Positions 20,301-26,300 of a stretch of DNA of 35,570 bases are shown in pieces. The stretch is from Escherichia coli (GTDB taxonomy: Bacteria > Pseudomonadota > Gammaproteobacteria > Enterobacterales > Enterobacteriaceae). The position numbers are program-made. Positions within the stretch are counted from its first letter, which is position 1. Each line of letters opens with the position of its first letter. The stretch lies in NCBI RefSeq assembly GCF_003334385.1, contig NZ_QOWN01000045.1; one strand, written 5' to 3'.

Positions 20301-23300
20301 TTAGATCAGCTTTATTCAGCCGCGGCCAGACGTGCTCCTGGGTGGTTTGCTGAAAATCGTCGAACTTTAATTTCACCCCCTGGCGAGCAATCAGTAAATC
20401 AGGTTTTACCTTTGCCAGACGGCGTTCAAGTTCCGGATACAGCCGCTCGATAATCGCTTCACATTCAGACCAGTGATGAATATCTTCCGCCATCGTGCGT
20501 TCCACGCCGACGGATTTTCGCAACCGTTCGCTGTTAACATCGCGTTCGTCAATCCCCTGACTACGCTCCCACAAAATGCGGCCAAATTTGCCAAAGCGTT
20601 TAAGCAGCATCACCAGATCACACTTTTGTACATCACCGCAGGTCCGCAGCCCCATCGCTTCCAGTTTTGCCGCTGAGACTTTGCCGACGCCGGGGATTTT
20701 TGCCAGCGGTAAGGTTTGTAAAAATGCCGGAACTTCTGCCGGCGTAATCACAAACTGGCCGTTGGGTTTATTCATGTCGGAGGCGATTTTGGCGAGAAAC
20801 TTTACTGGTGCCACGCCCGCAGACGCCGTCAGTTGCAGCTCGTTGAAGATTGTCTGGCGGATTTCCTGGGCGATGAGGGTCGCAGAACCGTGGCAATGGA
20901 CGCTATCGGTGACATCGAGATAAGCCTCATCCAGTGACAACGGTTCAATGCGCGAGGTGTAGCGCGAGAAGATTTCACGGATATGATTTGAGGCTTCTTT
21001 GTAGGCGTCAAAGCGCCCCGGAAGCAAGGTGAGATGTGGGCATAATTTGAGCGCCATCCCTGTCGGCATAGCGCTACGTACGCCAAATTTACGCGCGGGA
21101 TAATTGGCGGTGCTGATCACCCCCCGACGTTCGCGGCTGCCGCCAATAGCAATAGGGATATCGCGCAGGGCGGGATTGTCGCGCATCTCCACTGCGGCGA
21201 AAAAGCAGTCCATATCCACATGAATGATTTTACGCATTGCTCACCTCTCAACACTGGTAAAGTATACAGTGATTTCAGGGTTTGAGAAATGCGTAAAGAT
21301 TCAGCATTTAACGCGTTCGCTGCGAAAGCACCTGCTGCTTATCCAGCTTTTGCACCAGCGGCTGCACCACTTTATCCCCATGCTGACCAAAGTATTGATA
21401 CAGCGTATCGGACGCACTTTTGGTCAGCACCATAATCTCAATGCGCCGGTTGCCCGCGCTTTGCGGATTTTTGGAATCCAGCAGCATCTGGTCCGCCATT
21501 GCGCTTACCTGCATCACTTTATCTTCCGGCATTCCGGCCTCTTCCAGCACCCGACGAGCCGAAAGCGCGCGGTCACCCGAAAGGTTCCAGTTGTTGTAGA
21601 TATTGTTTTTGTAGGCCATCGCATCGGTATGCCCGGTAATAATAATTTTATTATCGAGCGAGTCGAACACTGGCGCGAGCTCCACCAGCAGCGTTTTAAA
21701 GAACGGCATAATCTTCGCGCTGCCGCGTTCAAACATATTGCGGTTCTGGTCGTCTTTAATCAGCACGCGTAATCCCTGGGGAACAATCTCCATCTCCAGA
21801 TTCGCTTCCATATGCGCATCACGGGCAATGGTGTTGATACTGGTTGCCAGCTCACCAAGCTCGGTGGCGGATTTCTTCTTCAGCAGCGCCGTTTTCTCAT
21901 TCACATCACGCGCTTTTTTCTCCGTCTCTTCCGGCACCGCCACGGTGGCAGGTTTTGGCGGATGAGACGGGCTGATTTTATTTAACGGCGACAGCCCACC
22001 ACCGTTAAAAATCGACTGCCCGTGCAGCGCGGCGATAATGCTTTCACGCTCGGATTTACTGACGCTGTTGACAATCAACTTTATTGTCGTCACCAAAGGG
22101 GCCGAGCGTATTTCCGAGGTTTCTGCCCGCTTTACCTTAGACGCGATGCCCGGCAAACAGATGGCGATTGACGCCGATCTTAACGCCGGATTGATCAACC
22201 AGGCGCAGGCGCAAACCCGGCGTAAAGATGTTGCCAGCGAGGCCGATTTCTACGGCGCGATGGACGGGGCATCGAAGTTTGTGCGCGGGGACGCCATCGC
22301 CGGGATGATGATTCTGGCGATCAACCTGATCGGCGGCGTCTGTATCGGGATCTTCAAATACAACCTGAGCGCCGATGCTGCCTTCCAGCAGTATGTGCTG
22401 ATGACCATCGGCGACGGCCTGGTGGCGCAGATCCCTTCCCTGCTGCTCTCCACCGCGGCGGCGATTATCGTCACCCGCGTCAGCGACAACGGCGATATCG
22501 CCCATGACGTGCGTAACCAGCTGCTGGCAAGCCCGTCGGTGCTCTACACCGCCACCGGGATTATGTTCGTGCTGGCGGTGGTACCGGGAATGCCGCACCT
22601 GCCGTTTTTGCTGTTCAGCGCCCTGCTTGGTTTTACCGGCTGGCGGATGAGCAAACAGCCGCTGGCGGCGGAGGCGGAAGAGAAAAGCCTCGAAACGCTG
22701 ACCCGCACCATCACCGAAACCAGCGAGCAGCAGGTCAGTTGGGAAACCATTCCGCTGATCGAGCCTATCAGTTTAAGCCTCGGTTACAAACTGGTGGCGC
22801 TGGTGGACAAAGCACAGGGTAACCCGCTCACCCAGCGGATTCGCGGCGTGCGGCAGGTGATTTCTGACGGCAACGGCGTGCTGCTGCCGGAGATCCGCAT
22901 TCGGGAAAACTTCCGCCTTAAGCCCAGTCAGTACGCCATTTTCATCAACGGCATAAAGGCTGATGAAGCGGATATTCCGGCGGATAAACTGATGGCCCTG
23001 CCCTCCAGCGAAACCTACGGCGAGATTGACGGCGTGCAGGGGAACGACCCGGCGTACGGGATGCCGGTCACCTGGATCCAGGCGGCGCAGAAAGCGAAGG
23101 CGCTGAATATGGGGTATCAGGTGATCGACAGCGCCAGCGTGATCGCTACCCATGTAAATAAGATTGTGCGCAGCTATATTCCTGATTTGTTTAACTATGA
23201 TGATATTACGCAGTTGCATAACCGTTTATCGTCGACGGCACCGCGTCTGGCGGAAGATTTGAGCGCGGCGCTCAATTACAGCCAGTTGCTGAAAGTGTAC

Positions 23301-26300
23301 CGGGCGCTGCTGACCGAAGGCGTTTCCCTGCGCGATATCGTCACCATCGCCACCGTGCTGGTCGCCAGTAGCACGGTGACGAAAGATCATATTCTGCTGG
23401 CGGCCGATGTGCGCCTGGCATTGCGGCGCAGCATTACCCATCCGTTCGTTCGCAAGCAGGAGCTGACGGTGTATACGCTGAATAATGAGCTGGAAAATCT
23501 GCTGACCAACGTGGTGAATCAGGCGCAACAGGGCGGGAAAGTGATGCTCGACAGCGTGCCGGTCGATCCGAATATGCTCAACCAGTTCCAGAGTACGATG
23601 CCACAGGTGAAAGAGCAGATGAAAGCGGCGGGGAAAGACCCGGTGCTGCTGGTGCCACCGCAGCTGCGCCCTTTGCTGGCGCGTTATGCAAGGTTGTTTG
23701 CGCCGGGGCTGCATGTGCTGTCGTATAACGAAGTGCCGGATGAGCTGGAGTTGAAGATTATGGGGGCGTTGATGTAAGTATCCAGCATTGGTGCACAACT
23801 GCCGGATGCGGCGTGAACGCCTTATCCGTCCTACCGTTCAGGCACAAGTTTGTAGGCATGATAAGACGCGCCAGCGTCGCATCAGGCATCTGCGCATAAC
23901 TGCCGGATGCGGCATAAACGCCTTATCCGGCCTACCGATCCGGCACAAGTTTGTAGGCATGATAAGACGCGCTAGCGTCGCATCAGGCATCTGCGCACAA
24001 TTATGAAATGATACGCTCCCCGGCACTAAAATCCGTTACGTCCCCCGCCCAATCGATGGGATATAACCCTCGCGCGACATCGCGATGGAACGTTGAGAAT
24101 GGCCAATCACTCACTTGCTTTACCCAACCATGCTTTACTGGATTTATATAAATATAATCAACATGATGCCTATAATCTTTGGTATTGCGGATGGCGTGCT
24201 CCCAAAAACGTGGTTGCCAGATATTTTTCAATCCACAAGCATGGGTAAATTGCTTTTTAATTTCCCGCCAGCGCGAGGAAAAATCATCATCGCCTTCAGG
24301 TAATGTCCAGATACAGTGCATATGCTCTGGCAAAACGACCCAGGCGTTGATTTCAAAAGGCCTGTCTCGCTTAACTTTAATAATGGCGTGACGGAGCATC
24401 TGGTACTGGGTGGTCAAAAGTTGGCTTCGACGATTTCGTAAATTCACCGTGAAAAACCATGTTCCCCCCTTGATGTAATAACGACGATATTCAGACATGG
24501 CGACTCCTTTTTCTCAACGGTAAGAAGAAAAGGAAAGGTTGGCAATGAGGTTGTTTTATATCGGGAAAGCGGCTCGCAAATATTCGCGGGCTCGTAGGCA
24601 TGATAAGACGCGCCAGCGTCGCATCAGGCACCTGCGTACAACTGCCGGATGCGGCGTAAACGCCTTATCCGTCCTACAAAATCGTCTCTTCCGTCAAAAT
24701 CCTGCGCGCGCCCAAAAAATGGTCCTGCCAGAAAGGTTCGGCTAATCGGCTTATCCGAATGGTTTCGCCGGTACGTGGCGACTCGATAAATTGCCCATCG
24801 CCCAAATACACGCCCATATGATCGGCTATCTCGCGGCTGTGGATATGGAAAAACAGCAAATCTCCCCGGCGCAGGTCGTTGTTCGCCACAATCGTTGCCC
24901 GGCGATAGTGGTACATCTCATTGGCCGTGCGCGGGAGCTTAGCCTCAAGGATCTTGTTGTAGGCATAAAAAACCAACCCGCTACAGTCAAAGCCTTTATC
25001 AGGCCGCGTACCGCCCCAGACGTAAGGCTTGCCAAGCTGCTGCTCCAGGCGGTGAATCGCCACTTCGGTAATGTTATGCAGATGGTCGCTGCTTAAAAAG
25101 TGGTTGTTTTCCGCCAGCGCCTGCCAGCGTCTGTCACTCGCCTTGAGCGGAGCAGGAAACCATTCTGGATGCTGTTTTATCTGCTCCCGGTTGTGCTGGC
25201 GTAGCGCCCTTTTGCTTTCGGCATTGCCTTCCACAATATAGCTGGCCTGCTTTTTCAGATGAGTTTGGTACTGTTTTAATAAACGCGCACGGTTTTGCAT
25301 CCGCTGGCGGGCGGCGTAGCTGAAAGAGATATGTGATGTGGTGGCGCTGGCAAATGAAGAAAACGGCAAACAAATCAACAGTAATCCCGACAATACAAAG
25401 GATGGAATCGACGGCAAGGACATACTCAATAATGGCTGGTCATGCTTTAATGTTGCAGTGTATCCCGGATCGTTTCTGAACAAACTTAATAAACCATTAT
25501 TATAAAATTAACATATATATTTCAGTTAATTATGTAAAAACATCCGTTTATTAAATTACTCATGGATTGTCGCTGTTGCTCATTTGAGCTACAATTCAAG
25601 CTGAATAAATATACAGCACAGGAGATACCCCAATGGCTGCTAACGCGTTTGTTCGCGCCCGAATCGATGAAGATCTGAAGAATCAGGCAGCGGACGTACT
25701 GGCCGGGATGGGGCTGACCATCTCTGACCTGGTTCGCATAACCCTCACAAAGGTCGCGCGTGAAAAGGCATTGCCGTTTGATTTACGCGAGCCTAATCAA
25801 TTAACCATTCAATCAATCAAAAACAGCGAAGCTGGCATTGATGTTCATAAGGCCAAAGACGCCGATGATTTATTTGATAAATTAGGAATTTAAATATGAT
25901 TCAAAGGGATATTGAATACTCGGGACAATATTCAAAGGATGTAAAACTTGCACAAAAGCGTCATAAGGATATGAATAAATTGAAATATCTTATGACGCTT
26001 CTTATCAATAATACTTTACCGCTTCCAGCTGTTTATAAAGACCACCCGCTGCAAGGTTCATGGAAAGGTTATCGCGATGCTCATGTCGAACCGGACTGGA
26101 TCCTGATTTACAAACTTACCGATAAACTTTTACGATTTGAGAGAACTGGAACTCACGCGGCGCTCTTTGGGTAAAGCCCGCTTCCGATGAAATTTGTAAA
26201 CCCTGCGCCGACAGGCTTGCGTAAAACTCTTTTGGTGATAATGTGAGCCTTCCAAATCCAGACTATTCCGATTTGGGATCCATTTTGCCGTCCTGGCGTG

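What the first reader, a model, noticed from the sequence alone, without database searches (positions are those of the whole stretch)
21308..23777. Flag-2 (lateral flagella) deletion scar: divergent lfhA' and lafU' fragments with overlapping 5' ends
An FlhA-family ORF lacking its N-terminal membrane region and a MotB-like ORF whose apparent N-terminus is antisense read-through meet head to head near 22040-22200. This matches the known large deletion of the Flag-2 cluster that leaves only the two terminal genes. The junction position is directly readable in this window.
Basis: partly seen in the sequence, partly recalled or inferred. Interest (0 to 1): 0.3.

Follow-up and report, generated by a model that had tools for sequence, protein, structure and literature searches.

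The report
Flag-2 lateral-flagella deletion scar (lafU'–lfhA')
This is the well-known scar left in most E. coli when about 36 kb of a second flagellar gene cluster was deleted, but the same nucleotide junction also sits on locally native flanks in at least five other genera, which one ancestral accident does not easily explain.

Summary
Window 21308-23777 holds the 3' 769 nt of lafU (- strand) joined back to back to the 3' 1704 nt of lfhA (+ strand). Alignment to intact Flag-2 loci, including E. coli 042, puts the junction at a 3-bp microhomology, ATC, at 22074-22076. About 35.6-36.0 kb is missing. LafU loses residues 1-52, which is its only membrane helix. LfhA loses residues 1-130. The 160-bp "overlap" of 5' ends is ORF read-through into the antisense of the other fragment.

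This is the known fhiA/mbhA (lfhA/lafU) scar of K-12, described by Ren et al. 2005. The same junction is in 4086 of 5426 complete E. coli genomes.

Three things are unexpected:
- Scar alleles are not a clade. Each intact flank haplotype I tested has a scar twin with identical or near-identical flanks on at least one side.
- Flank divergence among scars shows dN/dS of 0.035, the same as among intact genes.
- The same junction, on locally native flanks, occurs in E. albertii, Citrobacter, Kluyvera, Atlantibacter and Ewingella.

I therefore favour recurrent, sequence-directed deletion over a single ancestral event. No mechanism is identified.

The parts
21308..22076 (-). lafU' (mbhA): 3' 769 nt of the lateral-flagellar MotB homologue. 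It keeps codons 53-307 plus the stop. Codons 1-51 and two bases of codon 52 are deleted, which removes the single TM helix.
   Evidence: Collinear with L003 10711-11479 with no mismatches in this stretch. Full-length LafU is 307 aa, and its TM helix lies at about residues 35-53. Truncated forms carry PF00691 only, whereas full-length forms carry PF00691 plus PF13677.
22074..22076 (.). Deletion junction: ATC microhomology shared by both parental ends. It lies within the small palindrome GTTGA-CAA-TCAAC (22067-22079).
   Evidence: The parental ends are CTGTTGACAATC|CAC on the lafU side and CTGATGATCATC|AAC on the lfhA side.
22074..23777 (+). lfhA' (fhiA): codons 131-697 plus the stop of the lateral-flagellar FlhA homologue. 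Codons 1-130 are deleted.
   Evidence: Collinear with L003 47059-48762 with 1 mismatch in 1704. PF00771 FHIPEP is recorded on homologous ORFs. The lost N-terminus carries three hydrophobic helices plus most of a fourth.
22038..22073 (+). Spurious 12-codon N-terminal extension of the lfhA' ORF (MLSRSDLLTLLT), read from the antisense of lafU'.
22077..22198 (-). Spurious N-terminal extension of the lafU' ORF, read from the antisense of lfhA'. PGAP starts the CDS at GTG 22093.

Best explanation
SHOWN. The region is the Flag-2 (lateral flagella) deletion scar. About 36 kb holding roughly 40 flagellar genes was removed between nt 155 of lafU and nt 390 of lfhA, with the crossover inside a 3-bp ATC microhomology at window 22074-22076. 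What remains are the 3' parts of the two outermost genes, which are transcribed outward. They are now joined at their truncated 5' ends and have lost their own starts and upstream operons. LafU' lacks its membrane helix, which in MotB homologues carries the proton-binding Asp. LfhA' lacks TM1-3 and most of TM4. Neither can work as a stator or as an export-gate subunit. The apparent overlapping N-termini are read-through. This allele is the majority E. coli allele (75%) and is identical in junction to K-12.

INFERRED (about 55%). The junction is not one inherited accident. It is regenerated repeatedly from local intact loci by a deletion directed by sequence or structure at the same AT dinucleotide. 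This is because it occurs on native, selection-shaped flanks in at least seven lineages from two families. Within a species it is also passed between strains by homologous recombination. The molecular mechanism is not identified.
For: Identity of the scar:
- Searches give the ORFs, the annotation and the collinearity with intact loci L003 and 042.
- One search finds the junction 81-mer continuous in 4086 of 5426 genomes, including MG1655.
- One search finds interior Flag-2 sequence in 1318 of 5426 genomes.
- Literature.

Scars are not one clade in E. coli:
- Window versus intact L003: 0/839 and 1/1704 differences.
- SE15 versus intact JJ1887/TUM11352: 0 substitutions in 7.2 + 3.3-4.1 kb.
- L006 versus 042: 0/1704 on the lfhA side.
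- Scars differ from one another by 33-109 of 1704.

Flanks were shaped by selection:
- dN/dS among scars is 0.035 at dS 0.21, against 0.035 among intact alleles.
- All 7 sampled scars keep both frames open.

Same junction in other taxa, at DNA level: E. albertii, Atlantibacter subterranea, Kluyvera ascorbata, Citrobacter amalonaticus and two Ewingella lineages. More are seen at protein level.

Scar flanks are local:
- Scar and the closest local intact flanks are 98.0-99.2% identical in Atlantibacter, Kluyvera and one Ewingella lineage, against ~80% identity between E. coli and Citrobacter werkmanii. The second Ewingella scar (L107) is only 92.8% identical to the one Ewingella intact allele recovered.
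- Synonymous variants 1-15 bp from the junction agree between scar and local intact allele.
- Within 31 nt on the lfhA side, all 9 variable sites among five Enterobacteriaceae scars are third codon positions.

Generic microhomology does not explain the site. The E. coli intact allele has a 14-mer, 17 exact 10-mer matches (some overlapping) and 199 exact 8-mer direct repeats between its two end zones. The junction uses only 3 bp, and only 2 bp in Atlantibacter and Citrobacter.
Against: - No recombinase, transposase or conserved binding-site architecture was found at the endpoints. The inverted repeat at the lafU endpoint (TGACGCTGT-N9-ACAGCGTCA) is not conserved in Kluyvera.
- No reciprocal (circle) junction was found in 5426 E. 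coli genomes or in metagenome contigs.
- In ST131 the published phylogeny reads the change as an insertion of Flag-2, which implies homologous exchange rather than deletion.
- L008 and L011 differ by 13 sites, 8 of which lie within 175 bp of the junction. That looks like a recombination patch.
- Conversion tracts that end at the heterology boundary could in principle homogenise scar and intact flanks right up to the junction. That would allow a single old origin.
Confidence: 0.9

Rival explanations
1. This is the classical reading. One illegitimate deletion occurred in an ancestor of E. coli/Shigella. It was inherited vertically and spread between lineages by homologous recombination in the flanks. 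Scars in other genera would be unrelated events that merely look similar.
For: The single junction is found in 4086 genomes with no competing junction seen. Homologous exchange of the locus in ST131 is published. There is a patch-like cluster of differences around the junction in L008 versus L011. The whole locus is a mosaic of recombined blocks.
Against: The junction in other genera is the same to the nucleotide, not merely similar. Within E. coli no scar-specific core haplotype exists: 22008-22084 is monomorphic in scar and intact alleles alike, and the SNP at 22085 shows all four combinations with scar/intact state. The flank divergence among scars carries a purifying-selection signature.
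Confidence: 0.15
2. One very old deletion predates the split of the genera. Scar and intact alleles have both been kept in every lineage by balancing selection on having lateral flagella. Within-species gene conversion keeps scar flanks identical to intact flanks, right up to the junction.
For: Both alleles coexist in every taxon examined. The split is about 75:25 in E. coli, and about 25% of E. albertii genomes carry Flag-2. It needs no new mechanism. High recombination at the locus is evident.
Against: It requires a polymorphism older than the Yersiniaceae/Enterobacteriaceae split (Ewingella) to have passed through every intervening speciation. It also requires conversion to reach within 1-3 bp of a 36-kb heterology, because the Atlantibacter scar carries the local bases at -3 and +1. 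No scar-specific decay is seen within about 65-115 bp of the junction in any genus.
Confidence: 0.25
3. The two fragments are not dead. LfhA' and/or LafU' are expressed and kept by selection. That would explain open frames, low dN/dS and the near-universal retention of the 2.5-kb scar.
For: All 7 sampled E. coli scars, and the scars of four other genera, keep both ORFs open. Only 10 of 5426 genomes lack the region altogether. fhiA mRNA was measured by RT-qPCR in O157:H7. A weak sigma-70-like match lies at 22012-22039.
Against: Decay is common. E. albertii L015 has a 22-bp frameshift in lfhA' and a premature stop in lafU'. Large clusters of truncated or internally deleted E. coli LfhA' ORFs exist, with 794, 581 and 487 members. 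Private changes in scars are enriched for nonsynonymous ones: 20 nonsynonymous to 93 synonymous, against 0 to 25 in intact alleles. The fragments lack the parts needed for membrane insertion. Selection would also not explain why scar and local intact alleles agree at synonymous sites.
Confidence: 0.05

Closest known systems
E. coli K-12 lfhA (fhiA, b0229) / lafU (mbhA, b0230) pseudogene pair: the Flag-2 deletion scar of Ren, Beatson, Parkhill & Pallen 2005
   Same: Same genes, same neighbours (dinB on one side, rayT/yafL on the other) and the same junction. The 81-mer is 100% identical to MG1655.
   Different: Nothing structural. The window's flanks are one of several deeply diverged haplotypes, 94-100% identical among scar strains.
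Intact Flag-2 locus of E. coli 042 / EC958 / W and other Enterobacterales (De Maayer et al. 2020, PMC6993521)
   Same: The window's two fragments are collinear with the outer 3' parts of lafU and lfhA of these loci.
   Different: The 35.6-36.0 kb between lafU nt 155 and lfhA nt 390 is absent.
Deletions between short direct repeats, helped by nearby palindromes (Albertini/Glickman-Ripley type, and Tn10-like precise excision). This comparison rests on my own knowledge.
   Same: There is a microhomology at the junction. There is an imperfect inverted repeat between the two end regions: sense-to-sense similarity of about 17/24 nt, counted by eye from the sequences. There are small palindromes at both endpoints.
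   Different: The microhomology is only 2-3 bp across 36 kb, while much longer repeats go unused. Such events are not expected to recur at one site in many genera.
Programmed excision elements (B. subtilis skin, cyanobacterial nifD/fdxN elements). This is a resemblance from my own knowledge only.
   Same: Precise, repeatable removal of tens of kb at fixed endpoints inside genes.
   Different: Those elements encode their own recombinase and restore a gene on excision. Here no recombinase was found, and two genes are destroyed.

Membership tests
Flag-2 deletion scar (lfhA'-lafU') | An FlhA-family (FHIPEP) fragment lacking the N-terminus | tested here: met
   Codons 131-697 of a 697-aa LfhA are retained. 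PF00771 is recorded on homologous ORFs. PGAP notes 'missing N-terminus'.
Flag-2 deletion scar (lfhA'-lafU') | A MotB-like LafU fragment with the OmpA domain but no TM/plug region | tested here: met
   Codons 53-307 of 307 are retained. Truncated forms carry PF00691 only, whereas full-length forms also carry PF13677.
Flag-2 deletion scar (lfhA'-lafU') | The two fragments are adjacent and divergent, lying between dinB and rayT/yafL | tested here: met
Flag-2 deletion scar (lfhA'-lafU') | The junction is identical to that of K-12 | tested here: met
   The 81-mer at window 22035-22115 is 100% identical to MG1655 250019-250099.
Flag-2 deletion scar (lfhA'-lafU') | The flanks are collinear with an intact Flag-2 locus (042), and the whole interior is missing | tested here: met
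   The missing segment is 36,005 bp relative to 042.
Flag-2 deletion scar (lfhA'-lafU') | Direct repeats at the deletion ends (reported by Ren 2005, as cited in PMC6993521) | tested here: inconclusive
   Only ATC is exact. The repeat is 11/15 imperfect. In Atlantibacter and Citrobacter only AT is shared.
Site-specific excision system (considered for the recurrent-junction reading) | A recombinase or transposase gene is associated with the element in all taxa | tested here: not met
   rayT adjoins lfhA only in some E. coli and E. albertii. hicAB replaces it in L008, L009 and L011. Nothing of the kind is present in the Atlantibacter, Kluyvera, Citrobacter or Ewingella loci.
Site-specific excision system (considered for the recurrent-junction reading) | A reciprocal product (circle junction) exists | tested here: not met
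   0 of 5426 E. coli genomes and 0 metagenome contigs. A non-replicating circle would not be expected in assemblies, so this is weak evidence.
Site-specific excision system (considered for the recurrent-junction reading) | The same crossover position recurs in independent events | tested here: met
   The same AT dinucleotide is used in seven lineages with local flanks. Independence of the events is inferred, not shown.

The most novel reading that the evidence does not exclude
The Flag-2 scar is not a one-off ancestral accident. It is the product of a recurrent, nucleotide-precise excision of the ~36-kb cluster. That excision has happened independently in Escherichia, Citrobacter, Kluyvera, Atlantibacter and Ewingella, at the same AT dinucleotide, inside the conserved codons for the ends of a LafU helix and an LfhA helix. 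This implies an unrecognised deletion mechanism directed by site or by structure. It also implies a source-sink dynamic, in which intact loci persist and scars are continually regenerated.
Probability: 0.5. Interest if true: 0.75.

Novelty: already known. Interest (0 to 1): 0.5.

Why it matters
As annotated, the scar is textbook K-12 biology and matters only for correct pseudogene calling. The lafU CDS and the 579-aa ORF both carry N-termini that come from the antisense strand of the other fragment.

The wider pattern matters more if it holds. A large gene cluster would then be lost again and again at one exact nucleotide position in different bacterial families. That would be a new kind of mutational hot spot or programmed loss. 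It would explain why about three quarters of E. coli and E. albertii lack lateral flagella. It is directly testable by PCR across the junction in Flag-2-positive cultures.

Tried and rejected
- Ren et al. 2005 could not be read. Its content is cited second-hand from PMC3032704, PMC6993521 and PMC11420993.
- The genome contigs peptide scan was flooded by generic FlhA because of the DAMPGKQM pattern. It yielded only two useful loci, C. werkmanii (intact) and E. albertii (scar).
- I looked for a recombination breakpoint at the deletion endpoints inside intact L003 compared with L011. The switch in similarity begins about 140 bp inside the endpoint, so it is ordinary mosaicism and not informative.
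- I searched for the reciprocal circle junction in E. coli genomes and metagenomes and found none.
- I inspected the endpoints by eye for dif/Xer-like, integron-core-like, gyrase-consensus, GATC/MutH and REP/RayT features. There was no convincing match. The 9-9-9 inverted repeat at the lafU endpoint follows from codon choice and is lost in Kluyvera.
- I rejected a mobile-cassette model in which the scar is an empty attachment site. Interior and exterior sequence diverge in parallel between E. coli and Citrobacter, at about 80% and 82.6% identity.
- I did not run Pfam jobs. Precomputed Pfam hits sufficed.
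Full report
**1. What is in the window**

The ORF listing gives a 296-aa ORF at 21308..22198 on the - strand. Its body is MotB/OmpA-like.

It also gives a 579-aa ORF at 22038..23777 on the + strand, which is FlhA-like. The two overlap head to head at 22038-22198.

megablast against 5426 complete E. coli genomes finds the 2.7-kb region at 100% identity in several strains. In strain M217 the equivalent positions are annotated as follows:
- yafN and dinB (window 20182-21237).
- lafU (21308-22093).
- An FlhA pseudogene, 'incomplete; missing N-terminus' (22059-23777).
- rayT (24001-24498) and yafL.

This is the K-12 region around 250 kb, read on the opposite strand.

**2. Placing the deletion**

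About a quarter of genomes match only from window 22065/22074 onward, and they carry a full-length flhA there. I fetched one of them, strain 23CRST049, as locus L003 (49.9 kb). It has the complete Flag-2 cluster between a 924-nt lafU and a 2094-nt lfhA.

blastn splits the window into two blocks:
- Window 10598-22076 matches L003 1-11479, with 5 mismatches.
- Window 22065-24916 matches L003 47050-49901, with 4 mismatches.

Base-by-base comparison shows that left-flank identity ends at 22076 and exact right-flank identity begins at 22074. The crossover therefore lies in ATC at 22074-22076.

The two parental sites are CTGTTGACAATC|CAC and CTGATGATCATC|AAC, which match at 11 of 15 positions. The missing segment is 35,582 bp.

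Against 042 the missing segment is 36,005 bp.

**3. What the deletion removes**

LafU loses residues 1-52 (MRKTG...WKVAFADFTLAMMALFMTLW). This is its only hydrophobic helix, and from what is known of MotB it carries the conserved Asp.

LfhA loses residues 1-130, which hold three hydrophobic helices and most of a fourth. It keeps the FHIPEP loop, the later membrane segments and the cytoplasmic domain.

In the intact locus lfhA is the last gene of the fliMNPQR-flhBA-like operon. lafU is the last gene of the fliA-motA-lafU-like operon. Both fragments have therefore lost their promoters and their translation starts.

The ORF overlap is an artefact. Twelve codons of the + ORF and about 41 codons of the - ORF are read from the antisense strand of the other fragment.

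**4. Known or not**

The scar itself is known.
[quoted passage not shown] 2005.
- PMC6993521 repeats this. It mentions direct repeats at the deletion ends, and it reports lfhA/lafU remnants in 531 of 4028 Enterobacterales strains.
- PMC11420993 reports the truncated pair in Flag-2-negative E. albertii.

The 81-mer across the junction is continuous in 4086 of 5426 genomes (75.3%). In MG1655 it is 100% identical. Interior Flag-2 sequence is present in 1318 genomes (24.3%).

**5. The scar alleles of E. coli are not one lineage**

I compared 7 scar alleles with 5 intact alleles over 839 nt on the lafU side and 1704 nt on the lfhA side. There are no indels, and all scars keep both frames open.

Scars differ from one another by 33-109 of 1704 sites. 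Yet each intact haplotype has a scar twin on at least one side:

| Scar | Intact twin | Differences |
|---|---|---|
| Window | L003 | 0/839 and 1/1704 |
| L008 | L011 | 8/839 and 5/1704 |
| L006 | 042 | 0/1704 on the lfhA side; 37/839 on the lafU side |
| SE15 | JJ1887 / TUM11352 | 0 substitutions in 7.2 kb + 3.3-4.1 kb |

A synthetic scar built in silico from the ST131 intact allele matches many real scar genomes at 1370/1370.

No haplotype is specific to scars near the junction. Positions 22008-22084 are monomorphic in both classes. The SNP at 22085, 9 bp from the junction, occurs in all four combinations with scar/intact state.

dN/dS among scars for lfhA' is 0.035 at dS 0.21. Among intact alleles it is 0.035 at dS 0.24. 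The divergence among scar flanks was therefore laid down while the gene was under selection.

Relaxed constraint shows only in private changes. Scars have 20 nonsynonymous to 93 synonymous, and intact alleles have 0 to 25.

The whole locus is a mosaic of recombined blocks. Published work on ST131 treats Flag-2 as a recombination region and reads the change in that clone as an insertion.

**6. The same junction in other species, genera and a second family**

The E. albertii type strain carries ...GACAATC|AACTTTATC... on flanks 92% identical to the window. Its lfhA' has a 22-bp frameshifting deletion.

A protein search with the 579-aa ORF returned truncated LfhA ORFs at 71-90% identity. Where the called ORF reaches upstream of the junction (P0025, P0048, P0060/P0061, P0096, P0099), its N-terminus is antisense lafU followed by INF(I/V)VVTKG at the same codon.

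A search with full-length LafU returned the mirror image in Citrobacter and Kluyvera species...TTIKL|IVNSVSK.... Cluster look-up identifies the 74% lineage as Ewingella americana, family Yersiniaceae. That cluster holds both 694-697-aa and 562-592-aa forms.

DNA from these taxa shows lafU' abutting lfhA' with the junction at the same position:

| Taxon | Junction |
|---|---|
| Atlantibacter | GACGAT\|TAAC |
| Kluyvera | AACAATC\|AAC |
| C. amalonaticus | CACAAT\|TAAC |
| Ewingella (two lineages) | AGAAT\|TAAC and GACAATC\|AAC |

The intact alleles recovered from Atlantibacter, Kluyvera and one Ewingella lineage are 98.0-99.2% identical to the scar flanks. The second Ewingella scar (L107) is 92.8% identical to the one Ewingella intact allele recovered. 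E. coli and Citrobacter werkmanii are only ~80% identical across this locus.

The intact alleles also carry the same synonymous variants right next to the junction. In Atlantibacter these are G at -3 and T at +1, so only AT is shared there.

Among five Enterobacteriaceae scars, all 9 variable sites within 31 nt on the lfhA side are third codon positions. On the lafU side 8 of 11 are.

**7. Interpretation**

The identity of the feature is certain. Its origin is not.

- **A single deletion confined to E. coli** cannot explain the other genera.
- **A single ancient deletion** would need two things. A presence/absence polymorphism older than the family split would have to survive every speciation. 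Gene conversion would also have to reach within 1-3 bp of a 36-kb heterology.
- **Selection on the fragments** is contradicted by frequent decay. It would also not explain why scars agree with local intact alleles at synonymous sites.
- **Independent, repeated formation** of the same junction from local intact loci fits all the observations, but it lacks a mechanism.

Generic microhomology is not the mechanism. The intact E. coli allele offers a 14-mer, 17 exact 10-mer matches and 199 exact 8-mer repeats between its end zones. Within lafU x lfhA alone there are 64 exact 8-mers. Only the 3-bp site is used.

No recombinase is conserved next to the locus, and no circle junction was found. Three structural features are noted but unproven:
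- Both endpoints lie at the end of a hydrophobic helix coding segment with similar sequence (F..L.I[VI]N). This gives an imperfect inverted repeat between the two ends.
- There is a palindrome at each endpoint.
- The scar junction itself forms GTTGA-CAA-TCAAC.

I put recurrent sequence-directed deletion at about 55%, an old polymorphism with homogenisation at about 25%, the classical single E. coli event plus recombination at about 15%, and functional remnants at about 5%.

**8. Verdict**

The finding is real, correctly interpreted and already known. The interest score is raised by the cross-genus identity of the junction. I did not find that stated in the papers I could read, and it can be tested directly.

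Noticed in passing
window 18450-18456 (region about 18200-18710): This is a second deletion scar. rtcB' and 'prfH fragments are joined, with about 1.02 kb missing relative to strains that have intact rtcB-prfH (L011 7555-8574). The two blast blocks overlap by 7 bp. M217 annotates both fragments as incomplete. These are the K-12 ykfJ/prfH pseudogenes.
   Followed up: partly
window 23785-24000 and 24500-24680: REP/BIME-like repeat copies flank rayT (24001-24498, - strand), the REP-associated tyrosine transposase. Related copies occur inside intact Flag-2 loci (L003 about 22850-23140 and 42270-42354). In L008, L009 and L011 this slot holds hicAB instead of rayT.
   Followed up: partly
window 19837-20130 and leftward: The yafN-yafO toxin-antitoxin pair is present here, but it is absent in L008-L012, where dinB abuts yafP. 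This is a presence/absence polymorphism next to the scar.
   Followed up: no
window 22077-23777 (lfhA' part): Allelic divergence within E. coli is unusually deep here (dS 0.21-0.24). It is as deep as the divergence between E. coli and E. albertii at the same gene (dS 0.24-0.29). The lafU side is shallower: 0.09-0.13 within E. coli, against 0.37-0.42 between the species.
   Followed up: partly
L015 (E. albertii), equivalent to window 23007-23028 and about 21314: The E. albertii scar has decayed. There is a 22-bp frameshifting deletion in lfhA' and a 41-nt insertion near the lafU stop, with a premature stop in lafU'.
   Followed up: yes
proteins P0002, P0003, P0009, P0014-P0016, P0043, P0046, P0049: Many E. 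coli scar-type LfhA' ORFs carry different internal in-frame deletions of 27-56 aa, or short tandem duplications. This suggests ongoing slippage-type decay of the pseudogene.
   Followed up: no
window 22067-22079; L003 11462-11488 and 47052-47061: The scar junction forms the small palindrome GTTGA-CAA-TCAAC. The intact lafU endpoint lies in TGACGCTGT-N9-ACAGCGTCA, and the intact lfhA endpoint lies in the 10-bp palindrome GATGATCATC, which contains a GATC site.
   Followed up: partly
window 22012-22039 (+ strand): A weak sigma-70-like match (TCGACT-16-GATAAT, 9/12) lies inside antisense lafU', ending at the ATG of the 579-aa ORF. It is a consensus match only.
   Followed up: no
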